A stretch of 30,588 nucleotides of DNA, from positions 1-30,588 of the forward strand of contig CAZOGA010000003.1 of the NCBI GenBank assembly GCA_964579095.1, read 5' to 3'. A model generated the notes under the pieces. The model saw nothing but the letters and a program-made list of their open reading frames with translations. It searched no databases and was not told the DNA's origin. Of this stretch, positions 734-19,583 are shown piece by piece; position 1 is the first letter of the stretch; every line of letters starts with the position of its first letter. This stretch comes from an uncultured Desulfurellales bacterium. Its GTDB lineage: Bacteria > Campylobacterota_A > Desulfurellia > Desulfurellales > Hippeaceae. Both the position numbers and the translations under genes were made by a program.

Positions 734-919
734 ATGAATAAAGAAGAATTAAAAGAAAATATAGAAAAAATATATAATACTCTTCTAAATGTAGACACTG
801 ATTTAGCTTTTTTAGAGCTTACAGTAATAGAACAAGTAGTCAATTTAAGTGGTAAAGCAAGAAATAATTTAGAAAAAGTGATAAAAGATATTGAGAAACT
901 TAAAAAAATAACTGAATAA
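734..919 (+). CDS. hypothetical helical protein
   Basis: 61-aa ORF flanked by 19-bp direct repeat. Confidence 0.7.
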   Translation: MNKEELKENIEKIYNTLLNVDTDLAFLELTVIEQVVNLSGKARNNLEKVIKDIEKLKKITE

Positions 920-920
920 A

Positions 921-1124
921 ATGAATAAAGAAAGAGAAATGAAAATCCCATTCAAAAAAGAATACATAGAAACATCCGCCGCCAGACTTGATACTAAATT
1001 GATTGGAGTCTTTTCTAAGGACAGCACTGCAGTAATAAATAAAAAACTTAACGCAATTGAAAAAGAATTGAAGAACGCTTGGATTAAAGGTTATAAAAAA
1101 GGGTTAATAGATAAAGCAATATGA
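921..1124 (+). CDS. hypothetical protein
   Basis: 67-aa ORF; ATGA coupling to next gene. Confidence 0.7.
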   Translation: MNKEREMKIPFKKEYIETSAARLDTKLIGVFSKDSTAVINKKLNAIEKELKNAWIKGYKKGLIDKAI

Positions 1125-1378
1125 TTGCCTATACTCCATTGCCTCCTAACTTCGGTGAAGGGCTCAGGGCTACCTACAAGGGCGTGGTGGCTACGATATA
1201 CGAATATCCCACCCACGCACTTATTTATACCATAGAGAGCAAGCACGAGGGCAAGGGACAGGTTAGGAGATTCCTAGAGCTACTTAGAGAGAAATACCCA
1301 GAGATAAGGTCGTCCGTTCCGTTGAGCGAACGCTGGGAGAAAATAACTAAACTAAATAAAATTAAAATAGTGGAATGA
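1121..1378 (+). CDS. GNAT-like acetyltransferase, minimal
   Basis: IYTIESKHEGKGQVRRFLELL resembles the GNAT acetyl-CoA-binding motif A; about 51% GC over 1141-1320 (hand count). Confidence 0.5.
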   Translation: MIAYTPLPPNFGEGLRATYKGVVATIYEYPTHALIYTIESKHEGKGQVRRFLELLREKYPEIRSSVPLSERWEKITKLNKIKIVE

Positions 1379-1665
1379 AAAAAGAGAATAAATTACTTAA
1401 AACTATTCGTCAGAATGATGAGAGGTTTGATGAAAAAATAGAAAATGAATTTTTGTATCTTAAAAAGTCTGATAATAGTTATCATTTGGCGGCGAAAACC
1501 GTAGCAAAAGAAGAAGGAAAGATATATTTCACCCAATCCCGAATAAAAGAGCTGGAAGCGTTGGTAGAAATGATGAAAGAATATCCTATCAAGGATAGTC
1601 AGATAGGAGCATTTTATGACATTATCAGAATTTTAAAAAACACAATCAAAGAATTAAAAAACTAA
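1375..1665 (+). CDS. hypothetical protein
   Basis: 96-aa ORF, ATGA-coupled. Confidence 0.7.
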   Translation: MKKENKLLKTIRQNDERFDEKIENEFLYLKKSDNSYHLAAKTVAKEEGKIYFTQSRIKELEALVEMMKEYPIKDSQIGAFYDIIRILKNTIKELKN

Positions 1666-1668
1666 CTT

Positions 1669-2019
1669 ATGAAAATGACAAAAGAAAATAAATGTATCAG
1701 CTTACCTCTAGCAAAAGAACTCCAACAAGTGGCAGAGGAGAAAGGATTTAGATTGCCAGAGAGTGAACTTGTTTATATCAATGAAACATTAAGATTTCAC
1801 AGACAAGATAATTTATATAATCCTATTCCTGCCTATGATACAGCAGAATTAGGAGAGATATTGAAAGAATATGATTTAGAATGTATCTGGTTTGAAGAGA
1901 AGAATAAATTTGGAGCATTTCAAACTTGTAGTAGCGTTAAACCACAATATGCAGATACGGAAGCCGATGCCCGCGGCAAACTTCTTGTGTTTTTAATTAA
2001 GAATAATTTAATAAAATGA
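1669..2019 (+). CDS. hypothetical phage protein (alternative start 1675)
   Basis: 116-aa ORF; MTKENK junction motif at 1675. Confidence 0.75.
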   Translation: MKMTKENKCISLPLAKELQQVAEEKGFRLPESELVYINETLRFHRQDNLYNPIPAYDTAELGEILKEYDLECIWFEEKNKFGAFQTCSSVKPQYADTEADARGKLLVFLIKNNLIK

Positions 2020-2210
2020 CAAAAGAACAAGAAATTAGAGAAGTAATAAAAAGAGAACGAGATAGAATACAATTAGATTTAGAAGAATATATGCAAGGAA
2101 CTTTTTTAGAACAAGATAGTATTTATGTTGATTTACACGATATTATAAATAATAACAATAATAACTATGAACAAAGAAAAAGATTTGAAAGAAAATTTGG
2201 AAGAGTTTAA
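2016..2210 (+). CDS. hypothetical protein
   Basis: 64-aa ORF, ATGA-coupled; overlaps next ORF by 44 nt. Confidence 0.6.
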   Translation: MTKEQEIREVIKRERDRIQLDLEEYMQGTFLEQDSIYVDLHDIINNNNNNYEQRKRFERKFGRV

Positions 2211-2412
2211 AAAATTAGTGATGAATACTCGGGCTTTTTGGTTGCCTCCCGAAAAAAATGGAGGATGGGGAGAAGTAATGTTTGAGCGAAGAGAAGCCAA
2301 TAAAAAAGGTATTGTTGCAAAGAATCACCAATTTACCCAGACACTATTTTTAGAAAAACTATTAGAAAAATTATATGGGTTCAAATCTCATTCCCGCCCA
2401 ATAAAAATGTAA
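2167..2412 (+). CDS. hypothetical protein
   Basis: 81-aa ORF, MNKEKD start. Confidence 0.65.
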   Translation: MNKEKDLKENLEEFKKLVMNTRAFWLPPEKNGGWGEVMFERREANKKGIVAKNHQFTQTLFLEKLLEKLYGFKSHSRPIKM

Positions 2413-2431
2413 ACAAACTTAAAATAATAAA

Positions 2432-2626
2432 ATGACAAAAGAAAATAAAACAATAAAAGAAATATATAAATGCAAAAATTGTTCAGGTGATTTAAAATAT
2501 ATCAGAGGATTAGGATGGTGTCATATTGTTGCTACAGGTTGTGTTAATCCGCAAGTAAATAAGGAAGATTGGAAATGTTATTTAAAAAATAATAAAACTA
2601 AAATTGCCAAACAATTAAAAAAATAA
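2432..2626 (+). CDS. small Cys-rich, putative zinc-binding protein
   Basis: CKNC ... WCH ... C motifs. Confidence 0.6.
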   Translation: MTKENKTIKEIYKCKNCSGDLKYIRGLGWCHIVATGCVNPQVNKEDWKCYLKNNKTKIAKQLKK

Positions 2627-2700
2627 CTTAATAAAGATGTAAACAAACTCTATTGTTTGTAGACAAGAAGATAAAGATATAAACAAACTTTTAAAATAAA

Positions 2701-3129
2701 ATGACAAAAGAAAATGAAACCATAAAAAAAATACAAGAGTTAGTGCCTTCAATAATGGAGTTGAAATTTGGGTGTAAGGTTGTTGATGAGGAATACGGAA
2801 GAAAACATATTTATTATTTTGGAAGTGAGAATAAAGATTTTGTTTATTTGCATAAAGATAGTAAAGAAAGACAAGAATGGAAAAATAAATTTAAAGATAA
2901 TTTTAAAATACTCGGCAGACCAATTTCTCTGGAAGATATTTTAATTGCCTTAGAGAAAAAAGGAATCCCAATGAGGATTGATACAGAAGGGGAATTTCTT
3001 AAATACAAGAAAACCGATGATGATATAGGTTATAACTGGATAGAAACAGATATTTTCTGGCAACTAAACAAGCCCTTTCACGAGCAGAGCCAAAATACTA
3101 AGGACTTCATTGGAGATTTAATTAAATAG
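2701..3129 (+). CDS. hypothetical phage protein
   Basis: 142-aa ORF with typical codon usage. Confidence 0.8.
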   Translation: MTKENETIKKIQELVPSIMELKFGCKVVDEEYGRKHIYYFGSENKDFVYLHKDSKERQEWKNKFKDNFKILGRPISLEDILIALEKKGIPMRIDTEGEFLKYKKTDDDIGYNWIETDIFWQLNKPFHEQSQNTKDFIGDLIK

Positions 3130-3292: not shown

Positions 3293-3453
3293 AAAAGAAA
3301 ACTTGGGAAGAGATAAAAAAGGAAATACTCCGTAAAGACCACGCTAGGATAATCCGCTGGGCAGAGGAATATATAGAGAGGGATAAAAGAATCTGTGGCA
3401 CGGACAAACACGGAATAGCGCTGGCAGATTTGATTAGAGAGATAAACAAATGA
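3289..3453 (+). CDS. small hypothetical protein (54 aa)
   Basis: Manually translated MKKKTWEEIK...; ATGA coupling at both ends. Confidence 0.6.
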   Translation: MKKKTWEEIKKEILRKDHARIIRWAEEYIERDKRICGTDKHGIALADLIREINK

Positions 3454-3629
3454 AATTACAAAATAAATATATCTTAATAGGAATACTTCTTTTTCCTTTT
3501 ATATTGGGAATGTATATTGGAGAGATATTATCAAGAGTAGGAGAATGGATATATAAAGTGTCGGAGAAATACTTTGATAAATATGGAGAAAAAATTGTTG
3601 AGAAATTAAATTTAGAAGAAAAAGAATGA
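3450..3629 (+). CDS. small membrane protein (59 aa)
   Basis: Manually translated; hydrophobic YILIGILLFPFILGMYIG. Confidence 0.55.
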   Translation: MKLQNKYILIGILLFPFILGMYIGEILSRVGEWIYKVSEKYFDKYGEKIVEKLNLEEKE

Positions 3630-3731: not shown

Positions 3732-3740
3732 GATAATACA

Positions 3741-3908
3741 ATGAGAAAAGAAAAAATAAAACAATATAGGAATAAAGCAATAAATGATTTTTGGGACGAA
3801 CATAAAGCAGACTGGGAAATGAAAGATGTTGCTTATTTATTTAATTTGAGTTTGCCACAAATTTACAGAATATTAAAAGAGAAAAAACAAAGGTCGGAAA
3901 TAAAATAA
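3741..3908 (+). CDS. small helix-turn-helix DNA-binding protein (55 aa)
   Basis: Manually translated; MKDVAYLFNLSLPQIYRIL fits an HTH pattern. Confidence 0.65.
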   Translation: MRKEKIKQYRNKAINDFWDEHKADWEMKDVAYLFNLSLPQIYRILKEKKQRSEIK

Positions 3909-4113
3909 AATAAACTTATGAAAACTTTAATTCAAGCATTTATATACGAAGAAAAAACACAACAAGATTGCAATCATCCTAGAAAATATCAAAAGATGTT
4001 TAATTATGAAGGAGAATATCCCGCAGGAGGTGTCCGTTGCATGAAATGCGGGAAGATAATTAAACTTGTTGCTACTAATCAAGAATTAAACAAAGGTCGG
4101 AAATAAAATAAAA
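3885..4113 (+). repeat. 26-bp perfect direct repeat (3885-3910, 4088-4113) flanking ORF 3918-4106
   Basis: aaacaaaggtcggaaataaaataaaa twice, 203 bp apart. Confidence 0.9.
3918..4106 (+). CDS. small putative zinc-binding protein
   Basis: CNH ... CMKC motifs. Confidence 0.6.
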   Translation: MKTLIQAFIYEEKTQQDCNHPRKYQKMFNYEGEYPAGGVRCMKCGKIIKLVATNQELNKGRK

Positions 4114-4140
4114 AAAGCAATTAAAAATCTTTAATAAAAA

Positions 4141-4479
4141 ATGAAAAGATTATTAGAAGACCTTCAGAAAAGTAAAATTGTAAAAGTTACAGGAAGTTAT
4201 GCAGATGGCACTCAAAATGATTTTTCAGATATTGATTTTTATGTAAAACCAGACCATCCAGAATGTGAATTTCGTGGAGATAAAAGGAATATAGTAAAGA
4301 TTATAGATATATTAAACAGATATAATATAAAATGGCATTCTCAGGCACCTCTTACAATTTCTACTATAGGGTGTAAAAACAATATTGAAAAAGAACTTGA
4401 ATTTTCAGAACTTTATAAGAAAAGATTGAATAAATTAAAAGAAATAACTATAGAAGGAGTAAATTTCAAAACTTATTAA
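4141..4479 (+). CDS. minimal nucleotidyltransferase (Pol beta superfamily)
   Basis: GSYADG-x5-SDIDFYV matches the GS...DxD signature. Confidence 0.8.
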   Translation: MKRLLEDLQKSKIVKVTGSYADGTQNDFSDIDFYVKPDHPECEFRGDKRNIVKIIDILNRYNIKWHSQAPLTISTIGCKNNIEKELEFSELYKKRLNKLKEITIEGVNFKTY

Positions 4480-4498
4480 AGATTCAAAAAATAAACTT

Positions 4499-4660
4499 AT
4501 GAAAACATTAGAAGAAGTTAATTATATATGTCCTATCTGTGGAAGAGATTTAGCGGAAGACCCAGAAGATTGGATGGAAGAAATGGAGGCTTGTGTTGAA
4601 TGCGTAGCAGAGGGGCGATGTCCCCTCGAAAAGTATAATAAAATAAAAAATAACTTATGA
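4499..4660 (+). CDS. small zinc-finger protein (53 aa)
   Basis: Manually translated; CPIC ... CVEC. Confidence 0.6.
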   Translation: MKTLEEVNYICPICGRDLAEDPEDWMEEMEACVECVAEGRCPLEKYNKIKNNL

Positions 4661-11009: not shown

Positions 11010-11399
11010 ATGGCATCTGAACACGCAAAAGCAGTTGCTCAAGAAGTAATTGAAAAAGCGAGAAAAGGCGAGAAAATCAATAAGCAGGAGATTCAGATGA
11101 AACACGGCTATTCTAAAACTTCTGCTAAATCAATGAAAGCAACAATAACTAAAACTTATAAGAAAACGATGAAGCCAATTATTAAAAGTCTAATAACTGA
11201 AAGAGATAGGGCTATTGAAGAGATGAAAAAGAAAAGAAAAGACGCAAAGTATCGGGACTTATCTGATGCAGTTGATAAATTGACTAAAGTAATTCAATTA
11301 TTATCTGGCCGTGCAACAGATAGAACAGAGATATTTACTCAAGAACAAATTGATGCAATTCTCAATAGAAGAACAAAAAAAGATAGCACAAGCAGGTAG
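11010..11399 (+). CDS. terminase small subunit (putative)
   Basis: Basic helical protein with HGYSKTSA HTH-like motif directly upstream of and overlapping TerL. Confidence 0.65.
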   Translation: MASEHAKAVAQEVIEKARKGEKINKQEIQMKHGYSKTSAKSMKATITKTYKKTMKPIIKSLITERDRAIEEMKKKRKDAKYRDLSDAVDKLTKVIQLLSGRATDRTEIFTQEQIDAILNRRTKKDSTSR

Positions 11400-12777
11400 G
11401 TATGACCTTATTGATTTTTCTATTATTACTAATAGACAATATAAACCTAACTGGCACCATAATCAGATAGCAGAGAAACTAGAAGCAGTGGAAGCAGGCA
11501 AATTAAAGAGGTTAATGATATTTATGCCTCCGCGCGCTGGAAAATCTCAATTAGCGACTATTAACTTTCCTGCGTGGTATTTAGGAAGAAATCCAGATAA
11601 GGAAGTAATAACAGTCAGCTACTCTGGAGAGCTTGCATTAGACTTCGGGAGCAAGACAAGAGATTTAGTGAGGGATGAAGTTTATAATTTAATATTTAAT
11701 TTATCTTTAAGAGAAGACGAAAAAGCAAAAGGAAAATGGAGAACAAAACAAGGAGGATATTATATTAGTATGGGAATAGGCGGAACAATCACAGGCAGGG
11801 GAGCAGATATCCTATTGATTGATGACCCTATTAAAAACAGAGAGGAAGCGGAATCAGAAGTTTACCGCAACAAGGTTTGGGATTTCTACACATCCACAGC
11901 ATATACAAGACTTAATCCGGGCGGAGCAGTTATTATTATCTTGACTCGTTGGCATTTAGACGACTTAGCGGGAAGACTATTAAAGAAAGAGAGGCAAAAT
12001 TGGGAAGTGATAGAATTTCCAGCCATAGCGATAAAGGATGAGAAATACAGAAAGCAAGGTGAACCATTATGGCCGAGTAGATATTCTTTAGAAGAATATG
12101 AAAAAACAAAAGAAACAATAGGAATAATTAACTGGAATGCTTTATATCAACAAAGACCTATTTTATCAGAGAATCAAGAGTTTAAGCCCTACTGGTTCAA
12201 ATATAGGACACAAGAAGAACTTAATATATTAGAAACAAGGAACTTTATAACAATAGATACCGCAATCAGTAAGAAAGCCTCTGCGGACTATACAGGTATT
12301 TGCAGAAATTTTGTAGACAAAGAAAACAAGTGGAACATAAAGACTAATAAGTTAAGGATAAACCCTAAAGAACTAATAGACTTGCTATTTACTCTTTATG
12401 AGAAAGACAGACCAGAGAAGATAGGCATAGAAAAGACAATCTATTTACAGGCAATTAAGCCTTTCTTAGATGATGAAATGCGAAAGAGAAATAAGTTTTT
12501 ACCAATTGTGGAACTACTGCATAATCAAATCCAAAAAGAAACACGAATAAGAGGAATAATACCAAGATATGAAAGTGGTTCAATTATACATATAGAGAAT
12601 GAATGCGGAGATTTAGAAGAAGAAGCCTTGTCATTCCCTTTAGGCGCTCACGATGATGTTTTAGATAGCCTTGCTTATCAAGTTCAAATAGCAGAATCTC
12701 CAATTGGAAACGAAGCAATAAGGCGTAAAATTTTACAAAACCGCGCGCGGAGAACTAAAAACGAACTAATACCTTAA
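11353..12777 (+). CDS. terL: terminase large subunit
   Basis: Walker A MPPRAGKS, TGRGADILLIDDP, TRWHLDDLAGRL, nuclease IDTA...ADYT and HDDVLDSLAY. Confidence 0.95.
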   Translation: MQFSIEEQKKIAQAGRYDLIDFSIITNRQYKPNWHHNQIAEKLEAVEAGKLKRLMIFMPPRAGKSQLATINFPAWYLGRNPDKEVITVSYSGELALDFGSKTRDLVRDEVYNLIFNLSLREDEKAKGKWRTKQGGYYISMGIGGTITGRGADILLIDDPIKNREEAESEVYRNKVWDFYTSTAYTRLNPGGAVIIILTRWHLDDLAGRLLKKERQNWEVIEFPAIAIKDEKYRKQGEPLWPSRYSLEEYEKTKETIGIINWNALYQQRPILSENQEFKPYWFKYRTQEELNILETRNFITIDTAISKKASADYTGICRNFVDKENKWNIKTNKLRINPKELIDLLFTLYEKDRPEKIGIEKTIYLQAIKPFLDDEMRKRNKFLPIVELLHNQIQKETRIRGIIPRYESGSIIHIENECGDLEEEALSFPLGAHDDVLDSLAYQVQIAESPIGNEAIRRKILQNRARRTKNELIP

Positions 12778-13128: not shown

Positions 13129-13152
13129 AACTAATCTTAACCAACAACATTT

Positions 13153-13191
13153 GGCGGATATGGACTTAATTGTTCTGTATTCGCCTTTTTT
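13153..13191 (+). terminator. terminator-like hairpin plus U6 in portal leader
   Basis: ggcggatatgga/tctgtattcgcc 12-bp stem (3 G-U) followed by tttttt; ATG 2 nt later. Confidence 0.6.
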
Positions 13192-13192
13192 A

Positions 13193-14923
13193 ATGTCCCA
13201 AATACTTAAACAAATTAGCGACGAATTAAACTCTTATCTTACTCAGGAGGTTTTTATCTCTGAAGGATATCCGTATTCTGAACACGATTTAAAAAAGAGA
13301 ATTGTTATTTATGCTAACGGGATTTTTCCTGAAGGCAAAGTTGATAGCAAAGGGAACTATAAATACTGGTTTGATATTTGCAGTTCGCGCGTAGATGACG
13401 AGATTAAGAATATTGATTTTGACACAAAGCATATTGAAATTTATGTTGACCCGCCAAGTTCAAAATATGATACGCCTCTTTTTATCGCAAACGCACAGCT
13501 GAAAGACTTTTTAAGGGAAACCCGTCAAGCCCAAAAGATTAACGAATCTTTAGAAGAGTTTTCAGGCTGGGGGAATATTCTCTGGAAAAAGATAAAAGGA
13601 AAATACATAAAACTTGATTTGCTTAATACTTATATTATAAACACTGTTGCTAGAAGTATTAACGAAACGCCTGTAATCGAACGCTGGGAGATGACACAGA
13701 GCCAGCTAAGAGAGATGAATGGCGTATGGGACAATATTGAAGAAGTTATCAAGGAATGCGGAGACAAGCAGTTTTTGAGCGCTAAAGATGACGCAAAAAC
13801 TTATGTTCAAGATACAACAATTCCTTATTATGAGATATTTGAACGAAACGGAGAAGTTAGCGAGAAGACTTTATTTGAAGCTATGGGCAAAAAAGGCGGA
13901 AGAGAAAACAAATATCTCCTTGCCAAAATAGTTGTAGCAGGATTAGAGAAAGGAAATACCGCAGATACTAAAGTTCTATATGCCAAAGAAATTTCAAAGA
14001 TGCCATATAAAGAGGCTCACAGGGGACGCTACAATGGGCGCTGGTGGAGAACAGGCATATATGAGCTATTATTTGATGTTCAAACAAGAGTCAATGAAAT
14101 AGGCAATCAGATAGCCAGAGGGCTTGAATGGAGTTCTAAGACATTTTTTAGTACTAGCGATAGTCTATTTGTAGAGAATATCTCAACAGATATGGACAAT
14201 GGCGATGTTCTAAAGGCTAAAGATATCAGACAGATAGAAGTAAGAATGCAAGGATTTGACCAATTGGCCGCCGAATGGAATCGGATGATTGCCTTATCTA
14301 AAGATATCTGTAAATCATACGAGATAATTCAGGGTGAAACATTGCCTTCAGGAACACCATTTAGACTTGGCGCGCTAATGAATACGAACGCTAATAAGTT
14401 TTTTGATTATATCCGGGAAAAGATTGGAATAGTTTACGAAGAGATTTTCACGGATTGGATTCTTCCTGATTTAATTAAGAGCATAAAAACTAAGGATGTA
14501 ATTGAACTTGCGGGAGATTCTGAATTTATGGAGAGATATTATAAATCAATCGCAAACGCTTGGTATATTAAAAACTTGCTTGCTATCGGAGTTCATAGTC
14601 CGCAAATGGCTGAAGTGCTAATTCAAAGCAAGATTAACGAATTGAAGAAAAGACCAAAAGCCTTGATCAAGAATAATAAAGAAATGTTTATCGGATTAAA
14701 GGCAAAAGCAAAAATAGTTATTACAGGGGAAAATGTCAGAATGGCCGAAGACTTGGAAACATTAAGTTCATTTATTCAGCTAGAACAAGACCCAGCGAGG
14801 CGAGAATATTTATTAAATATGGCATACGAGAAAAAAGGATTTGATGTAGGAGCAATGCCTAAAAGCCAGCCAGAAGGAGGAGCTATACCAACTAATGCGC
14901 CCGCAGTGCCACTGCCAACATAA
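13193..14923 (+). CDS. portal protein (P22-like); start revised from 13151
   Basis: About 576 aa after TerL; WWRTGIYELLFDVQTRVNEIGNQ portal-type motif. Confidence 0.85.
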   Translation: MSQILKQISDELNSYLTQEVFISEGYPYSEHDLKKRIVIYANGIFPEGKVDSKGNYKYWFDICSSRVDDEIKNIDFDTKHIEIYVDPPSSKYDTPLFIANAQLKDFLRETRQAQKINESLEEFSGWGNILWKKIKGKYIKLDLLNTYIINTVARSINETPVIERWEMTQSQLREMNGVWDNIEEVIKECGDKQFLSAKDDAKTYVQDTTIPYYEIFERNGEVSEKTLFEAMGKKGGRENKYLLAKIVVAGLEKGNTADTKVLYAKEISKMPYKEAHRGRYNGRWWRTGIYELLFDVQTRVNEIGNQIARGLEWSSKTFFSTSDSLFVENISTDMDNGDVLKAKDIRQIEVRMQGFDQLAAEWNRMIALSKDICKSYEIIQGETLPSGTPFRLGALMNTNANKFFDYIREKIGIVYEEIFTDWILPDLIKSIKTKDVIELAGDSEFMERYYKSIANAWYIKNLLAIGVHSPQMAEVLIQSKINELKKRPKALIKNNKEMFIGLKAKAKIVITGENVRMAEDLETLSSFIQLEQDPARREYLLNMAYEKKGFDVGAMPKSQPEGGAIPTNAPAVPLPT

Positions 14924-15992: not shown

Positions 15993-16649
15993 ATGGAAGA
16001 TTCCAAAAAAGACGATAAAATTATCACTTCCGAACCTACCGAGGAAGAAAAACAAGCGGAGGCAAAAGCTTTGGAAGAAGTTAAGGATGACGAAATTCGT
16101 AGCGAAGTAATAGAAAAATACGAATTAGATGAGGAAATTGACGCTGACCTCATTAACAAAATCGTCAAAAACACCTTAGGAGAAAAGAAAGCGTTGAGCA
16201 CCGCTATTCGTCAGAAGATAAATCAGCGGACTGAAAACCAAGACCTTCGTAAGAAATACGAGGGGGACGAGAAGAACAAGATTGACGAGAACAAAAAGGT
16301 AGAAAAGATAAATCAGGATGATTTAAACACTATCCTTGATGAGCGCGACAGGAAGCGCGACCTTGATGCTCTTGATGTTTCAGACGAGCTGAAGCAAGAA
16401 ATTGAGTTCTACGCTAAGACTAAAAAGCTATCTGTCAAAAAAGCCCTTGAATCTAGCTATATCAGCTTTCTAAAAGCGAAAGAAGATAAAGCTAAGGAAG
16501 AGGAAGAGGCAGGCGCTGGAAGTGGAAGCGGAACCCATAATATCAAAAACCTTGACAAGATTGAAAGTCCTCGTAAAGCTTTTGACCTTTCTACAGAGGA
16601 AGGACGGAAACAATACGCGGAATGGAAAAAAGCCAAAAAGATGGCATAG
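15993..16649 (+). CDS. capsid scaffolding protein (putative)
   Basis: Acidic, helical 218 aa between portal cluster and MCP. Confidence 0.7.
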   Translation: MEDSKKDDKIITSEPTEEEKQAEAKALEEVKDDEIRSEVIEKYELDEEIDADLINKIVKNTLGEKKALSTAIRQKINQRTENQDLRKKYEGDEKNKIDENKKVEKINQDDLNTILDERDRKRDLDALDVSDELKQEIEFYAKTKKLSVKKALESSYISFLKAKEDKAKEEEEAGAGSGSGTHNIKNLDKIESPRKAFDLSTEEGRKQYAEWKKAKKMA

Positions 16650-16700
16650 AGTCGGTTGAGGGTTGGGGTGTTATGGAATTATAATCTAATTTTTAATTAA

Positions 16701-17915
16701 ATGAGTAATGCATTAACAGCCCTTAATAGAGAGTATTGGCTGTCCGAAGCGCAAATCATTTTCTTTAGGGAAAGTGCCGCGCTAAAGGTAGCCGCCTTAG
16801 AGTTGAGAGATACTCTGAAAAATGGTGATACCATAAATCACCCTGACATCTCTCATCCTCAAGCTGTAACATATACGAAAGGAAGCGCTATCACTAATAA
16901 GGATAGATTCAGCGCGAATCAGCAATTATCAGTAGCCACTGCAAAGGTAGTTCCTTTTTATGTTGACGAAATTGACAGGATTCAGAATGATTTTGTTACA
17001 CAACAGAGAATGGCGCAAGATGGACAAAGACAATTAAACAACACCCTTGACCAATTTGTAAACTATCTTGGCGTTAATAACGCAACAAGTTATGTTGACG
17101 CAGGGGATGTTGGCGGAAGTTCAGGAAGCAATATAGCGTTGACTGTTTCAAACATTGACCAAGTAGCAACTGCTTTTGACACCAAGCTTAATACGCTAGA
17201 TGTTCCTCAAGGCAACAGATTCATAATGTTTGGGCCGAGGTCTAAGGCAGTTTTGAATAGATATCTTGGCGGAAAAGAGACTTCAATGGGTGATATTATT
17301 GGACAGAATGGCAGAATGCCTAACAGATTCGGATTTGAACCGTTCTATTCCAATAACAATTACTACACAGCCACTTGGACACCAGCTGATAATCCTACAG
17401 CAGGCGACACTGTAACGATTAACGGCGCTGTGTATGAGTTTGTAGCCGTGCCTGACACAGACGAGGCTTCAACTGCTTATATTGGAGTAGATATTGGCGG
17501 AAGCACTGCTGTAACGCTTGATAACCTTGTCGCCGCTATAAACGATAGCGGAACAGAGGGGACTACTTACGGCACAACTGACGCTAATAACTGGAGAGCG
17601 CGCTGGAAGACAGTTAAAGCAGGCGTTGTTGCTACTGACGGGACTTCTTATATCTCAATAAAAGGTTATGGAGATATTGTTGTTTCTGCCTCTGAGTCAG
17701 CTGATGTTTGGTCTTCTCAGACTTCTTATGTTTTAGCTGGATTAAGAAAATCAGTTAGCTTAGTAACGCAGGTTTCTCCTGATATTTCTGTCAGACCAGT
17801 AGACAATAAACTAGGAAATAATATCTTTGTATGGACTCTTTACGGAGGGACTGTATTTAACGATATGAAGGACGCCTTAGTTTTCGCCAAAATCGACGCA
17901 AGTGATTGGAATTGA
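16701..17915 (+). CDS. major capsid protein (P22-coat-like, HK97 fold)
   Basis: GDTINHP, GFEPFYSNN and WTLYGGTV motifs; position after scaffold. Confidence 0.88.
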   Translation: MSNALTALNREYWLSEAQIIFFRESAALKVAALELRDTLKNGDTINHPDISHPQAVTYTKGSAITNKDRFSANQQLSVATAKVVPFYVDEIDRIQNDFVTQQRMAQDGQRQLNNTLDQFVNYLGVNNATSYVDAGDVGGSSGSNIALTVSNIDQVATAFDTKLNTLDVPQGNRFIMFGPRSKAVLNRYLGGKETSMGDIIGQNGRMPNRFGFEPFYSNNNYYTATWTPADNPTAGDTVTINGAVYEFVAVPDTDEASTAYIGVDIGGSTAVTLDNLVAAINDSGTEGTTYGTTDANNWRARWKTVKAGVVATDGTSYISIKGYGDIVVSASESADVWSSQTSYVLAGLRKSVSLVTQVSPDISVRPVDNKLGNNIFVWTLYGGTVFNDMKDALVFAKIDASDWN

Positions 17916-18652
17916 TAGATAACTAATACTCTTACGCCCCCGACACAATGACTGAAGAACATAAACAAAAAATAAAACAGAAATTAAAAGGGAGACATCT
18001 TTCTACAATAACTGAATTTAAGAAGGGACATAAATTCTCGCCTGAAATTTTGGAAAAGATAAAGCAAGCTCTTAAGGGAAACATTCCTTGGAATAAAGGA
18101 TTAACTGGAGTTATGCCTATTCCGTGGAATAAAGGAAAAAAAGAAATTCGTCCTGATGTTATTAAGAAAATGAGTGAAGCAAGAAGAAACAAAACCCTTT
18201 CTGAAGAAACGAAGAAAAAAATTAGTCAATCTAATAGAGGAAAAAAGAAAAAATACAAAATTAGCAAAGAACAATTAAGTAAAATTAGAAAAGAACAATA
18301 CCGAAAGCAAATTTTAAATGGAAAGCATCCGAGGTGGAAAGGAGGAATAACGCCATTAGTAGAACAAATAAGACATTGTTTCAAATATCGTCAATGGCGT
18401 TCAGATGTATTTACAAGAGATGATTTTACTTGCCAAAATTGTGGAATAAGAGGAAGCATATTAAACGCTCATCATATTAAAGAATTTAATAAGATAATTG
18501 AAGAAAATAATATCAAAACATTTCAAGAAGCGTTGGATTGTGATGAATTATGGAATATCAATAATGGCGAAACTCTTTGCAAAGAATGTCATAAGAAAAG
18601 ACACTTGGTCATTGTGTCGGGGGACATAAGAGTGATTGGAATTAATAGATAA
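17901..18652 (+). mobile_element. HNH cassette bounded by 22-bp direct repeats and long inverted repeats
   Basis: DR agtgattggaatt(g/a)atagataa at 17901-17922 and 18631-18652; IR 17937-17952/18608-18623 (16 bp perfect), extendable to 17923/18639. Confidence 0.8.
17948..18652 (+). CDS. HNH homing endonuclease with NUMOD3-like repeats
   Basis: SEETKKKISQS and IPWNKG repeats; FTCQNCG...AHHIK...NGETLCKECH. Confidence 0.88.
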   Translation: MTEEHKQKIKQKLKGRHLSTITEFKKGHKFSPEILEKIKQALKGNIPWNKGLTGVMPIPWNKGKKEIRPDVIKKMSEARRNKTLSEETKKKISQSNRGKKKKYKISKEQLSKIRKEQYRKQILNGKHPRWKGGITPLVEQIRHCFKYRQWRSDVFTRDDFTCQNCGIRGSILNAHHIKEFNKIIEENNIKTFQEALDCDELWNINNGETLCKECHKKRHLVIVSGDIRVIGINR

Positions 18653-18654
18653 TC

Positions 18655-18691
18655 AGTTTATTGCGCTCCTGATTTAGGGGCGCAATAAGCT
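18655..18691 (+). other. 16-bp RNA hairpin
   Basis: agtttattgcgctcct-gattt-aggggcgcaataagct, 2 G-U pairs; no U-tract. Confidence 0.7.
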
Positions 18692-18698
18692 CTATTCT

Positions 18699-19115
18699 AT
18701 GGAAGATGAAAACAAAATTACAACAATAGCAATTACTTTATTGGGAATTGTTGCAGTTGTTGCGTTGATTTTTACTGGCGGGAATGTTGTAACACAAGAC
18801 CAGCCTATCGGCGGATTAGTTCATAATGTTAAAGAGATATTTACGAATGGATTGACTGCGGAAGGGACTCTCACGGCTAAAGATGCAACATTTTCGAGCA
18901 CGGTAGCTGTAACAGGGGTTTCAACCTTATCAGATGAGCTGAAGGTAAACAGGACAGCGAGTTCTACTATTCAAGTAGGAAGCACTGCCTCAGGAGTAGG
19001 AACAGGATGTCTAATATTGGGAGATTCTGGCGCTTCTACTACACAGCCTGTATATATAACGGCAACAGGAGCGACTATTACAGCAACAACAACGAAACCA
19101 GCAATTTGCCAATAA
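18699..19115 (+). CDS. putative structural protein with N-terminal membrane anchor
   Basis: ITTIAITLLGIVAVVALIFTGG followed by Thr/Gly/Ser-rich beta sequence. Confidence 0.7.
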   Translation: MEDENKITTIAITLLGIVAVVALIFTGGNVVTQDQPIGGLVHNVKEIFTNGLTAEGTLTAKDATFSSTVAVTGVSTLSDELKVNRTASSTIQVGSTASGVGTGCLILGDSGASTTQPVYITATGATITATTTKPAICQ

Positions 19116-19176
19116 CTTTGATTGATTGATATTTCTCTTCTTTTAAAAAGGAGGGAAATAGTCAGTCAAGCAAGGT
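19115..19176 (+). other. about 25-bp irregular RNA hairpin
   Basis: 19115-19140 pairs with 19150-19176 via several G-U pairs, one mismatch and one bulge. Confidence 0.7.
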
Positions 19177-19199
19177 CAATTATCAATAACAATAAATTT

Positions 19200-19583
19200 A
19201 TGAAGAATATATTATACGGACTTATGGCAGGGATAGTAATGGGAGTCATTCTTGGAATGGTTCTATCTTTACCCTCAGGAAATTTAGGCTCTACTGATAT
19301 TAACCGCTTTAGTTCAGCTACTAATTCGTCCGTTGCGGTAACATCAACATCCCGCGCGGTATTAAGTGGAGGAGGCGGAGGCAGGCAATATGCCAAAATC
19401 ACCAATGATAGCGATTATGTTGTTTATTTAGCTCTAGGCTCTACTGCGACAGTTAATAGCGGAATCCGTCTAAATGCTTCTGGCGGGACTTACGAGATAG
19501 ATTCAAACAATTTGTATGTAGGAACAATATCGGCTATCTCCACGACAAGCACAACATCAACATTGACAACAGTTGAAAAATGA
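19200..19583 (+). CDS. putative structural protein with N-terminal membrane anchor (start revised from 19122)
   Basis: MKNILYGLMAGIVMGVILGMVLSL followed by beta-rich domain. Confidence 0.7.
   Translation: MKNILYGLMAGIVMGVILGMVLSLPSGNLGSTDINRFSSATNSSVAVTSTSRAVLSGGGGGRQYAKITNDSDYVVYLALGSTATVNSGIRLNASGGTYEIDSNNLYVGTISAISTTSTTSTLTTVEK

What the first reader, a model, noticed from the sequence alone, without database searches (positions are those of the whole stretch)
17901..18652. HNH cassette with transposon-like ends: duplicated capsid 3' end plus inverted repeats
Seen: a 22-bp direct repeat (one mismatch) spaced 730 bp. Both copies read SDWN-stop-stop in the capsid frame, and the single mismatch only swaps TGA for TAA. 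Just inside lie inverted repeats: 16 bp perfect (17937-17952/18608-18623), extended by a 7-bp helix (17928-34/18627-33) and 5 more bp (17923-27/18635-39). The HNH ORF fills the whole loop. Its tail after CKECHKKRH (LVIVSGDIRVIGINR) is read-through into the IR and DR. Established: freestanding phage HNH genes normally lack TIR/TSD structure, and IR-promoted slippage between flanking DRs drives Tn10 precise excision. Inference: a compact transposase-free mobile unit that inserts harmlessly at the capsid stop and can excise precisely.
Basis: partly seen in the sequence, partly recalled or inferred. Interest (0 to 1): 0.88.

Follow-up and report, generated by a model that had tools for sequence, protein, structure and literature searches.

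The report
Self-locking homing endonuclease gene behind capsid
A selfish HNH nuclease gene has been inserted, with a 22-base duplication, right after a phage capsid gene. Its two ends can pair into a long stem that most likely keeps the nuclease from being over-produced on the abundant capsid mRNA.

Summary
A relative with an 89%-identical capsid protein (L006) lacks exactly 730 bp and carries one copy of the repeat-equivalent segment. So this is a duplicative insertion between the capsid stop codon and its terminator.

The insert is a free-standing NUMOD3+HNH homing endonuclease gene. Related HNH genes sit at the same capsid-stop site in diverged phages (L039, L162, L177). Two filled/empty pairs show a sharply diverged 30-50 nt capsid tail next to the insert. 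All the closest relatives are empty.

The repeats are not transposon ends:
- there is no transposase;
- only one copy exists;
- repeat lengths differ between cassettes (22, 13, 9 nt);
- 77 of 80 family members elsewhere have no inverted repeat.

Every complete cassette found directly behind a capsid gene (the window, L039, L162, L130) pairs its start-codon region with the 3' end of its own ORF, each through a different sequence. One cassette in front of a capsid gene (L088) does the same. Between the window and L039 there are two compensatory changes.

My best reading is a long-range mRNA lock on HNH translation. This is inferred, not shown. Precise excision is possible but no evidence supports it.

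The parts
16656..16685 (+). Promoter-like site upstream of the capsid gene (TTGAGG-18-TATAAT)
   Evidence: Consensus scan, 10 of 12 matches. There is no comparable site directly upstream of the HNH gene, so the HNH is probably transcribed by read-through from the capsid gene (inference).
16701..17915 (+). Major capsid protein gene, 404 aa; stop TGA at 17913-17915, followed by a second in-frame stop TAG at 17916-17918
   Evidence: ORF list. PHROG 267 major head protein, E=8.5e-14. 202 homologues, some carrying a precomputed Pfam PF25209 match.
17869..17922 (+). Capsid tail tract that is sharply diverged from the empty allele L006; likely co-converted or cleavage-immune flank
   Evidence: Identity to L006 is 28/50 in 17869-17918, against 36-49 of 50 (mostly 40 or more) in the other bins of the capsid gene. 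It is 42/45 and then 28/48 over the last 93 nt. The 99%-identical pair L177/L176 shows the same pattern.
17901..17922 (+). Direct repeat copy 1: last four capsid codons, two stops, then ATAA
17923..17952 (+). Left arm of the long-range helix (perfect core 17937-17952). Covers the whole 25-nt HNH leader and the AUG at 17948-17950
   Evidence: Arm-arm duplex energy -46.9 kcal/mol. It is the only GC-rich leader among 24 gene starts in the window.
17948..18652 (+). HNH homing endonuclease ORF, 234 aa. N-terminal NUMOD3 repeats (residues 1 to about 125); C-terminal zinc-bound HNH domain (about residues 125-219); non-native 15-residue tail
   Evidence: Pfam NUMOD3 25.2 bits (cut-off 20.4) and HNH 23.4 bits (cut-off 21.4). 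PHROG HNH endonuclease families. Invariant C162, C165, H175, H176, N205, N206, C211, C214 and H215 in the family alignment.
18608..18639 (+). Right arm of the long-range helix (perfect core 18608-18623), inside the 3' tail of the HNH ORF
   Evidence: Homologous to the right arm of L039 (ATTGTGTCGGGGGACA versus ATTGTGTTGGGGAACA).
18631..18652 (+). Direct repeat copy 2. It holds the HNH stop codon (18650-18652) and sits where the capsid tail sits in the empty allele, directly before the terminator
18655..18691 (+). Terminator-like hairpin (17-bp stem) that directly follows the capsid stop in empty alleles
   Evidence: (I3). Conserved in L006 at 3441-3477.
18699..19115 (+). Next structural-module gene, 138 aa; about 90% identical to L006 at the DNA level over its 5' two-thirds

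Best explanation
The 730-bp unit is a free-standing homing endonuclease gene. It has N-terminal NUMOD3 DNA-binding repeats and a C-terminal HNH nuclease. It occupies the junction between the capsid stop codon and the capsid terminator, and it reached this phage by nuclease-driven recombination with a related phage (intronless homing). It brought with it, or selected for, a diverged capsid tail of about 50 nt.

The 22-nt direct repeat is a duplication of the target made at insertion, possibly by microhomology-type repair. Its effect is that the capsid gene keeps its own end, and the HNH ORF, which has no stop of its own, terminates in the second copy just before the old terminator.

The inverted repeat works mainly in RNA. 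The HNH gene has no promoter-like site of its own, so it is probably transcribed on the very abundant capsid mRNA. On that mRNA its 25-nt leader and AUG pair with the last codons of its own ORF, about 655 nt downstream, in a helix of about 28 bp. The phage's genes lack Shine-Dalgarno sequences and have open, A/U-rich leaders, so such a helix should block initiation. A ribosome could load only in the short interval before the 3' arm is transcribed, or when another ribosome is melting the 3' arm. The result would be only a trickle of nuclease, and a capsid mRNA with a compact 3' end.

Shown: the insertion, the duplication, the family, the site recurrence, the flank divergence, the predicted helix and its recurrence. 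Inferred: homing activity, co-transcription, and the effect on translation.
For: Insertion and duplication. L006 (capsid protein 89% identical) aligns colinearly once 17923-18652 is removed. It has one 22-nt equivalent segment, followed by the same terminator.

Family. NUMOD3 plus HNH with the catalytic and zinc residues intact. There are 2256 relatives in many genomic contexts. Some lie inside intein-like inserts (L005). The N-terminal module also occurs with HNH, HNH_3 and GIY-YIG nuclease domains.

Homing signature.
- HNH relatives lie directly after the capsid stop in L039 (57% identical), L177 (56%) and L162.
- L162 has the same N-terminal module (52-53% identical) joined to a different HNH domain.
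- All closest capsid relatives are empty: L006, L007, L008-L010, L216, L217.
- The flank next to the insert is diverged: 28/48 against 42/45 in the window versus L006, and 10 changes in the last 30 nt in L177 versus L176, which are otherwise 99% identical.

Helix.
- The minimum-free-energy and centroid folds of the window, L039 and L088 all contain the closing helix.
- Arm-arm duplex energies are -46.9 (window), -56.1 (L039), -36.2 (L162), -28.7 (L088) and -17.0 (L130) kcal/mol.
- Across 82 family loci, the fraction of the initiation region (-20 to +5) paired with the last 150 nt is 0.95 (window), 0.92 (L162), 0.73 (L039) and 0.64 (L130), against a median of 0.015. Four of the top five are the capsid-stop cassettes.
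- Within the window the HNH is the outlier among 22 genes: the initiation region is unpaired with probability 0.05, against 0.27-0.81 for the others.
- The arm sequences differ between cassettes. In L162 and L130 the right arm is native conserved coding sequence, so the leader must have adapted to it.
- Between the window and L039 the right arms are homologous, and two pairs changed on both sides (G:C to A:T, C:G to T:A).

Transcription and translation context. No promoter-like site lies directly upstream of the HNH, and the terminator lies directly after it. 21 of 24 leaders in the window have no SD-like motif and are A/U-rich.

Precedent. Local hairpins that sequester the ribosome binding site limit translation of I-TevI, I-TevII, I-TevIII, segB and mobE on read-through transcripts (PMC2988022).
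Against: - There are no expression or structure-probing data. The helix is a thermodynamic prediction over a 655-nt loop, and translating ribosomes or co-transcriptional folding could prevent it from forming.
- The cassette is compact. Any inverted repeat near its ends must overlap the initiation region and the ORF 3' end, so the geometry does not by itself separate an RNA role from a DNA role.
- Mismatches in the helices show no clear strand bias: about 5 G-U-compatible against 3 A-C, by my own count on the alignments.
- Covariation rests on only two homologous cassettes.
- Most family members (77 of 80) have no such helix, and most have open initiation regions. It is therefore not a general requirement of the family.
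- The model does not explain why the two direct-repeat copies remain 21/22 identical.
- Nuclease activity and the target site are untested.
Confidence: 0.55

Rival explanations
1. The unit is a compact transposon-like element with terminal inverted repeats and a target-site duplication. The HNH moves it, for example through staggered nicks 22 nt apart followed by fill-in. It can leave precisely by inverted-repeat-promoted slippage between the direct repeats.
For: - The repeat geometry is real and nested as in IS elements.
- Empty alleles have one copy.
- Direct repeats flanking the HNH ORF are enriched across the family: 13 of 80 loci reach the 95th percentile of a cross-locus null, Mann-Whitney p=7e-5. 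L162 has a perfect 13-nt repeat.
- From my own knowledge: inverted-repeat-stimulated deletion between short direct repeats is established for Tn10 and Tn5 precise excision.
Against: - There is no transposase, and no second copy anywhere.
- Repeat lengths vary from 9 to 40 nt.
- The arms are not conserved between cassettes that share the DNA-binding module, and they are not strictly terminal.
- The same site is occupied in diverged phages, with flank divergence, which fits homing.
- The known empty alleles carry a different tail, so they are not excision products. No allele with the window-type tail but without the insert was found.
- An inverted repeat that promotes loss of the element should be selected against, yet its pairing has been maintained through compensatory changes.
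Confidence: 0.12
2. The inverted repeat acts in single-stranded DNA rather than RNA. During homing or strand annealing it folds the 700-nt heterology into a stem-loop. This brings the two homologous flanks, and the direct repeats, together, so the insert is copied or annealed into an empty genome more efficiently. Instability by slippage is a side effect.
For: - The helix is equally possible in DNA. All four capsid-stop cassettes and L088 have it, through different sequences, as expected for a purely structural role.
- In the window the arms abut the repeats.
- The helix mismatches show no clear G-U bias (my count).
Against: - In L162 the arms lie 18 and 31 nt inside the insert boundaries. In L088 the left arm ends 6 nt before the AUG.
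- I know of no precedent for such an aid to homing.
- Most family members spread without it.
- The association with the capsid transcription unit, and the uniquely GC-rich leader in a genome of open A/U-rich leaders, fit expression control better.
Confidence: 0.15
3. The helix is an RNA processing site rather than a translational lock. About 28 bp of double-stranded RNA is cut by RNase III, or a similar enzyme, on both arms. This excises the HNH segment from the capsid mRNA, removes its AUG, and restores a short capsid 3' end.
For: - The helix length (28 to about 50 bp) and stability are in the range of RNase III substrates (my own knowledge).
- The architecture resembles the long-range stems that flank 16S and 23S rRNA in their precursor (my own knowledge).
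Against: - The host is unknown, and no RNase III gene or cleavage data are available.
- The L130 helix has only 17 bp.
- Both outcomes reduce HNH expression, so this is a variant of the main model rather than a true alternative.
Confidence: 0.1
4. The repeats are functionless scars of one illegitimate insertion event. For example, the insert landed in or next to a hairpin with microhomology-mediated repair, and the repeats have survived only because the event is recent.
For: - The direct repeat is nearly perfect, which suggests a recent event.
- Illegitimate double-strand-break repair at microhomologies is documented as a route for ectopic invasion (PMC2988022).
- 77 of 80 family members lack an inverted repeat.
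Against: - The helix recurs in five cassettes through unrelated sequences.
- In L162 and L130 the right arm is conserved coding sequence, so the leader must have evolved to match it.
- The window and L039 are only 57% identical in protein yet keep the pairing through two double changes.
- The capsid terminator hairpin is intact downstream, so it was not split.
Confidence: 0.08

Closest known systems
Free-standing HNH homing endonuclease genes of phages (T4 mobA-E, Aeh1 mobE; NUMOD-containing I-HmuI-type enzymes)
   Same: - HNH nuclease fused to modular DNA-binding repeats.
- Sits between conserved genes.
- Sporadically present among close relatives.
- The flank next to the gene is replaced or diverged, as with co-conversion.
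- Nuclease and DNA-binding modules are shuffled between relatives.
(PMC2988022)
   Different: - The nuclease is C-terminal and the NUMOD3 repeats N-terminal.
- The insertion is accompanied by a 22-nt target duplication.
- The ORF has no stop of its own.
- The gene is closed by a long-range helix.
- Activity and cleavage site are untested.
RBS-sequestering hairpins that limit translation of I-TevI, I-TevII, I-TevIII, segB and mobE
   Same: The initiation region of a homing endonuclease is buried in a stable RNA helix on transcripts that read through from an upstream gene. The rationale is to keep nuclease levels low and leave the neighbouring gene undisturbed (PMC2988022).
   Different: - The known cases are local hairpins of a few tens of nucleotides, relieved by a late promoter placed inside the hairpin.
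- Here the partner lies about 655 nt away at the ORF's own 3' end.
- No internal promoter-like site was found.
- The genes lack Shine-Dalgarno sequences.
Long-range 5'-3' locks in other mRNAs: hok (fbi/tac pairing), the MS2 maturation gene, and the MS2 coat-replicase interaction (from my own knowledge)
   Same: A distant complementary segment sequesters the start of a harmful or low-copy protein. Translation is then possible only on nascent RNA, or when the partner segment is removed or melted by ribosomes.
   Different: - There is no antisense RNA and no known 3' processing.
- The partner lies inside the same ORF.
- This is a DNA phage late operon.
- The resemblance is one of logic, not homology.
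IS or MITE-type DNA transposons with terminal inverted repeats and target-site duplications; Tn10 and Tn5 precise excision
   Same: The direct repeat / inverted repeat / gene / inverted repeat / direct repeat geometry. The structure should be prone to slippage deletion.
   Different: - No transposase.
- Single copy.
- Variable duplication length.
- Arms not conserved among relatives, and partly coding.
- The insertion site is specified by homology to one gene end across diverged phages.
Integrative elements that insert into the 3' end of a gene and carry a replacement end (prophages and islands in tRNA or tmRNA genes; from my own knowledge)
   Same: The target gene's 3' end is duplicated, so the gene stays intact, and the element ends up flanked by direct repeats of that end.
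   Different: No integrase or attachment-site recombination. The duplicated segment is only 22 nt. The element is a single nuclease gene.

Membership tests
HNH (His-Me finger) endonuclease, Pfam PF01844 / PF13391 | A beta-beta-alpha-metal motif with the catalytic His, the Asn and the second His, here with two CxxC zinc dyads | tested here: met
   PF01844 scores 23.4 bits against a cut-off of 21.4. C162, C165, H175, H176, N205, N206, C211, C214 and H215 are invariant in 30 aligned relatives. PHROG HNH endonuclease families match with E down to 6e-11. The AlphaFold model (mean pLDDT 75) gave only a weak PDB match, to the GVE2 phage HNH (5h0m, E=1.1, TM-score 0.52 normalised by target length).
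NUMOD3-containing homing endonucleases | NUMOD3 DNA-binding repeats joined to a nuclease module | tested here: met
   PF07460 scores 25.2 bits against a cut-off of 20.4. The repeat array varies among relatives. The same N-terminal module occurs with HNH, HNH_3 and GIY-YIG domains.
Homing endonuclease gene (functional class) | Present or absent at one defined site among otherwise colinear relatives | tested here: met
   The window against L006: exactly 730 bp. L177 against L176: 99% identical. L007-L010, L216 and L217 are empty.
Homing endonuclease gene (functional class) | The same target site is occupied by related genes in diverged genomes | tested here: met
   L039, L177 and L162 have the gene directly after the capsid stop. 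L130 has it after the capsid terminator.
Homing endonuclease gene (functional class) | Flanking sequence co-converted or diverged next to the gene | tested here: met
   28/48 against 42/45 identity. 10 changes in the last 30 nt against about 1% elsewhere. The direction of the change cannot be determined.
Homing endonuclease gene (functional class) | The protein cleaves or nicks the empty allele, and the gene is over-inherited in crosses | not testable with these tools
   This needs purified protein and phage crosses.
DNA transposon with terminal inverted repeats and target-site duplication | Encodes a transposase, or depends on one | tested here: not met
   The only ORF in the unit is the HNH. 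None of the window ORFs that were scanned gave a transposase domain.
DNA transposon with terminal inverted repeats and target-site duplication | Several copies at unrelated sites, sharing the same terminal repeats | tested here: not met
   The protein is on one contig. The 28 hits to the 16-mer arm in IMG/VR show no cassette homology; one holds only a distant HNH-domain match more than 5 kb from the 16-mer. The direct-repeat sequence has 0 hits.
DNA transposon with terminal inverted repeats and target-site duplication | Duplication of fixed length, with the arms exactly at the ends | tested here: not met
   The duplications are 22, 13 and about 9 nt. In L162 the arms are 18 and 31 nt inside the ends.
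Group I intron carrying an endonuclease ORF in a loop | A ribozyme core around the ORF, with the element interrupting a gene | tested here: not met
   There is no Rfam match at E up to 10 in 16500-19500, nor at E up to 0.01 in six related loci. Only about 25 nt of the insert lies outside the ORF. The insert lies after the capsid stop codons.
RBS- or start-sequestering translational control of endonuclease genes | The initiation region lies in a stable helix on the read-through transcript | tested here: met
   This is a computational result only. The probability of being unpaired is 0.05, and 0.95 of the region pairs with the 3' end. The duplex energy is -46.9 kcal/mol.
RBS- or start-sequestering translational control of endonuclease genes | The helix lowers translation, and there is a defined escape route | not testable with these tools
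   This needs reporter fusions, toeprinting and transcript mapping.

The most novel reading that the evidence does not exclude
Homing endonuclease genes that settle in the capsid transcription unit repeatedly evolve a self-lock. The leader and start codon pair with the 3' end of the gene's own ORF, across 360-650 nt. Only nascent transcripts, or transcripts already being translated, can then make nuclease. This is a hok- or MS2-like kinetic limiter not described for homing endonucleases, and it arose here at least four times through unrelated sequences. The same cassettes insert with a variable-length duplication of the neighbouring gene's end, which hints at a duplicative insertion route distinct from classical double-strand-break homing.
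Probability: 0.4. Interest if true: 0.7.

Novelty: new variant of a known kind. Interest (0 to 1): 0.55.

Why it matters
Free-standing homing endonuclease genes are among the commonest selfish elements in phages. How they avoid harming the genes they land beside is known only from a few T4-type cases, all of which use local hairpins.

If the long-range lock is real, it has three consequences:
- It shows a second, convergent solution for silencing a nuclease embedded in the most highly expressed phage operon.
- It gives a simple sequence signature, leader complementary to ORF 3' end, for finding regulated selfish genes in metagenomes.
- It provides a compact natural part for capping the translation of a toxic gene.

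The target duplication and the sharply diverged capsid tail also mark a recombination boundary inside a structural gene. This matters for reading mosaicism in phage capsid genes.

Tried and rejected
- Chance: rejected by shuffles and a window-wide scan.
- Group I intron or another known RNA family: no Rfam hit.
- Multi-copy element: the 16-mer arm has 28 hits in IMG/VR. That is about what I estimate chance alone would give for a 16-mer in a collection of this size. None shows cassette homology; one locus has only a distant HNH-domain match more than 5 kb from the 16-mer. The direct-repeat sequence has none.
- Close relatives in sequenced phages: there is only an 86-nt HNH-domain match to a Leeuwenhoekiella phage. 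Protein-level hits are restricted to the nuclease domain.
- Packaging-type HNH (the HK97 gp74 kind): unlikely. The gene carries NUMOD3 repeats, lies after the capsid gene rather than beside the terminase, and is absent from all close relatives.
- Inverted and direct repeats as a family-wide trait: only 3 of 80 loci exceed the cross-locus null for the inverted repeat. Direct repeats are only mildly enriched.
- More cassettes through the N-terminal module: 39 hits, but P0243, P0245 and P0246 lie in non-capsid contexts.
- Immune AGT-type versus sensitive TCA-type capsid tails: not clean, because several endonuclease-free alleles also use AGT or AGC. The weaker observation stands: the four alleles with the HNH are among those least like the tail shared by L006, L132, L130, L010, L127, L126 and L129.
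- G-U bias as a test of RNA against DNA: inconclusive (my count).
- Solved-structure comparisons: no sequence hit, and only a weak fold hit (5h0m, E=1.1).
- L085, the fifth locus with a closed initiation region: its neighbours gave no informative annotation.
Full report
**1. Observation**

The sequence is as described. The direct repeat is 17901-17922 and 18631-18652 (21/22 identical, 730 nt apart). The inverted repeat is 17937-17952 and 18608-18623 (16/16 complementary). With one bulge and one small internal loop the helix extends to 17925-17952 / 18608-18637. The RNA minimum-free-energy fold extends it to 17923 / 18639.

Both repeat copies read SDWN-stop-stop in the capsid frame. The HNH ORF 17948-18652 starts inside the left arm and ends on the last TAA of the second repeat copy.

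Neither repeat is expected by chance:
- Dinucleotide shuffles give 0 matches.
- It is the only perfect inverted repeat of 16 nt or more within 1.5 kb in the window.
- Shuffled flanks score far lower.

**2. It is an insertion with a target duplication**

The window is a phage head module, read from the following hits:
- large terminase, 11311-12777;
- a large ORF at 13151-14923 with only a weak connector-family hit, probably the portal by its position;
- a 218-aa ORF at 15993-16649 with no family hit, presumed scaffold by position and composition;
- major capsid protein, 16701-17915 (PHROG 267).

The capsid protein has 202 relatives. The closest is on L006 and is 89% identical. L006 is colinear with the window but lacks exactly 730 bp. 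Its capsid stop is followed after 9 nt by the same terminator hairpin that follows the second repeat copy in the window. L006 has one 22-nt segment in the place of the two repeat copies.

The next relatives are also empty: L216 and L007 (72% identical), L008-L010 (67%) and L217 (62%).

**3. What the insert is**

The ORF has NUMOD3 repeats in its N-terminal half and a zinc-bound HNH nuclease domain in its C-terminal half. Both pass the Pfam cut-offs, and the catalytic and zinc residues are invariant across 30 relatives.

The family is very large, with 2256 hits. Many lie on short contigs in varied contexts. Some sit inside intein-like inserts (L005). This is what one expects of homing endonucleases.

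After the nuclease motif the window's protein has a 15-residue hydrophobic tail. In the relatives the tails are mostly short and many are basic. The tail is encoded by the right arm and the repeat, so the ORF has no native end and simply runs until the duplicated stop-rich target.

**4. Homing rather than transposition**

Related genes lie directly after the capsid stop in diverged phages of the same capsid family:
- L039-L041: 57% identical protein.
- L177: 56% identical; the contig ends inside the gene.
- L162.
- L130: a more distant HNH, placed after the capsid terminator.

L162 is the telling case. Its N-terminal DNA-binding module is 52-53% identical to the window's, but its nuclease is a different HNH domain. 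The site therefore goes with the DNA-binding module.

Two filled/empty pairs show a short, sharply diverged capsid tail next to the gene:
- Window against L006: 42/45 identical, then 28/48 over the last 93 nt of the capsid gene. Identity returns to about 90% immediately after the second repeat copy.
- L177 against L176: 99% identical over 3.1 kb, but 10 differences in the last 30 nt of the capsid gene.

This is the pattern left by co-conversion, or by selection for a cleavage-resistant site (PMC2988022).

Against a transposon:
- There is no transposase.
- There is only one copy.
- Duplications are 22, 13 and about 9 nt.
- 77 of 80 family loci have no inverted repeat above a cross-locus null.

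**5. The inverted repeat recurs through different sequences**

| Locus | Left arm | Right arm | Quality | Note |
|---|---|---|---|---|
| Window | 17925-17952 | 18608-18637 | 16/16 core, about 28 bp | arms abut the direct repeats |
| L039 | 155-177 (142-197 with gaps) | 794-816 (776-827 with gaps) | 21/23 core | right arm homologous to the window's |
| L162 | 3736-3765 | 4358-4387 | 27/30 | right arm is the conserved LCKSCN codons of its different nuclease |
| L130 | 3778-3794 | 4140-4157 | 17 nt | right arm encodes the family's TDTWG tail |
| L088 | 985-1024 | 1573-1609 | about 37 nt | gene sits between the presumed scaffold gene and the capsid gene |

In every case the left arm covers the region just upstream of, or including, the start codon, and the right arm lies in the ORF's 3' end. 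In L162 and L130 the right arm is constrained coding sequence, so the leader must have evolved to match it.

The window and L039 have homologous right arms (ATTGTGTCGGGGGACA against ATTGTGTTGGGGAACA). Two pairs changed on both sides, G:C to A:T and C:G to T:A (read).

**6. RNA folding**

The minimum-free-energy and centroid structures of the window, L039 and L088 all contain the closing helix (z-scores -7.0, -6.5 and -1.3). The arm-arm duplex energies are -46.9 (window), -56.1 (L039), -36.2 (L162), -28.7 (L088) and -17.0 (L130) kcal/mol.

In a partition-function survey of 82 family loci I measured what fraction of the initiation region (-20 to +5) pairs with the last 150 nt. The values are 0.95 (window), 0.92 (L162), 0.87 (L085), 0.73 (L039) and 0.64 (L130), against a median of 0.015. 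Four of the top five are the capsid-stop cassettes.

Among 22 genes of the window the HNH is the clear outlier. Its initiation region is unpaired with probability 0.05, against 0.27-0.81 for the others.

Of 24 leaders in the window, 21 have no Shine-Dalgarno-like motif and are A/U-rich. The HNH leader, acgcccccgacaca, is the only GC-rich one.

No promoter-like site lies directly upstream of the HNH. A promoter-like site precedes the capsid gene, and the terminator follows the HNH.

**7. Interpretation**

My best reading is that the HNH is carried on the abundant capsid mRNA and its start is locked by pairing with the end of its own ORF.

This is the same logic as the local hairpins that sequester the ribosome binding sites of I-TevI, I-TevII, I-TevIII, segB and mobE (PMC2988022). 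It differs in using a long-range partner. From my own knowledge, that resembles the 5'-3' lock of hok mRNA and the long-distance interactions of MS2.

The escape routes I propose are inferences, not results: loading of a ribosome on nascent RNA before the 3' arm is made, or melting of the 3' arm by a terminating ribosome.

Caveats:
- The cassette is compact, so any near-terminal inverted repeat must overlap the start and the ORF 3' end.
- The mismatches give no clear G-U bias.
- Only two cassettes are homologous enough to show covariation.

A role in single-stranded DNA therefore remains a serious rival. Such a role could be looping out the heterology during homing, or merely causing slippage.

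**8. The direct repeat**

Both copies are of the diverged type. Each matches the single L006 segment at only 11 of 22 positions. The duplication was therefore not made from an L006-like target. It was either already in the donor or arose in a lineage that had this tail.

Its effects are clear:
- The capsid ORF keeps its end.
- The HNH ORF acquires a stop.
- The old junction between the stop and the terminator is preserved.

Direct repeats flanking the HNH ORF are mildly enriched across the family (13 of 80 loci at or above the 95th percentile of the null, p=7e-5). Some duplicate the upstream gene's end (window, L162). Others duplicate the downstream gene's leader (L080, L107). Illegitimate, microhomology-based repair is a documented route for ectopic invasion (PMC2988022) and could produce this. 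Staggered nicking by the HNH is an untested alternative.

Slippage between the repeats, helped by the helix, is plausible. However, no excision product was found.

**9. Verdict**

The transposon-like reading and the excision claim are not supported by the present data.

The element is a new variant of a known kind: a free-standing HNH homing endonuclease gene with a recurrent long-range self-pairing architecture that has not, to my knowledge, been described.

Noticed in passing
L177 2776-3360 (and the corresponding region of L176): In this pair the capsid gene itself is interrupted after about codon 91 by an insert of about 580 nt. The insert holds a second, small HNH ORF (L177 2994-3323). L176 has a further 321 nt there. 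There is no Rfam intron match, so it may be an unrecognised intron or another kind of insert.
   Followed up: partly
L162 3757-4425: The N-terminal NUMOD3 module is 52-53% identical to the window's, but it is fused to a different HNH nuclease domain at the same capsid-stop site. This looks like a natural swap of nuclease domains on one DNA-binding module.
   Followed up: partly
L005 2284-6543: A very long ORF carries several intein-like inserts (LCLRGNTKI ... VHN), each holding an HNH domain of this family.
   Followed up: no
window 900-2720: Six copies of a gene-start cassette of about 35 nt (..AATAAAATGACAAAAGAAAAT..) head successive small ORFs that begin MTKE. This may be a repeated regulatory or leader module.
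   Followed up: no
window 3885-4505: A small nucleotidyltransferase gene (4141-4479, Pfam NTP_transf_2) is flanked by a 12-nt inverted repeat, 4126-4137 / 4473-4484. The left arm lies just before the AUG and the right arm spans the stop. The gene seems to sit inside a repeated intergenic sequence (AAACAAAGGTCGGAAATAAAATAAAA at 3885 and 4088; AAAATAAACTTATGAAAAC at about 3902 and again at about 4490). The geometry matches the HNH cassette, but a 12-nt A/T-rich inverted repeat is within chance expectation.
   Followed up: partly
window, 24 gene starts: Almost all leaders lack a Shine-Dalgarno motif and are A/U-rich. This suggests a host with SD-independent initiation. One distant capsid homologue lies on a 260-kb contig named Patescibacteria.
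   Followed up: no
L088 1030-1590 and L063 328-837: In these phages, members of the same HNH family sit on the other side of the capsid gene, just before its start. In L088 the gene follows the presumed scaffold gene. L088 also has the 5'-3' helix.
   Followed up: partly
Capsid gene tails of L006, L132, L130, L010, L127, L126 and L129: The last 21 nt (GAYGCTTCAAGCTGGACWTAA) are nearly identical, including synonymous positions, in phages whose capsid proteins share only about 45-50% identity with the window's. This could be a conserved nuclease target or a horizontally exchanged segment.
   Followed up: partly
Proteins P0007, P0012 and P0019: These capsid homologues are truncated or have foreign ends, which hints at further interruptions of this capsid gene in other relatives.
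   Followed up: no
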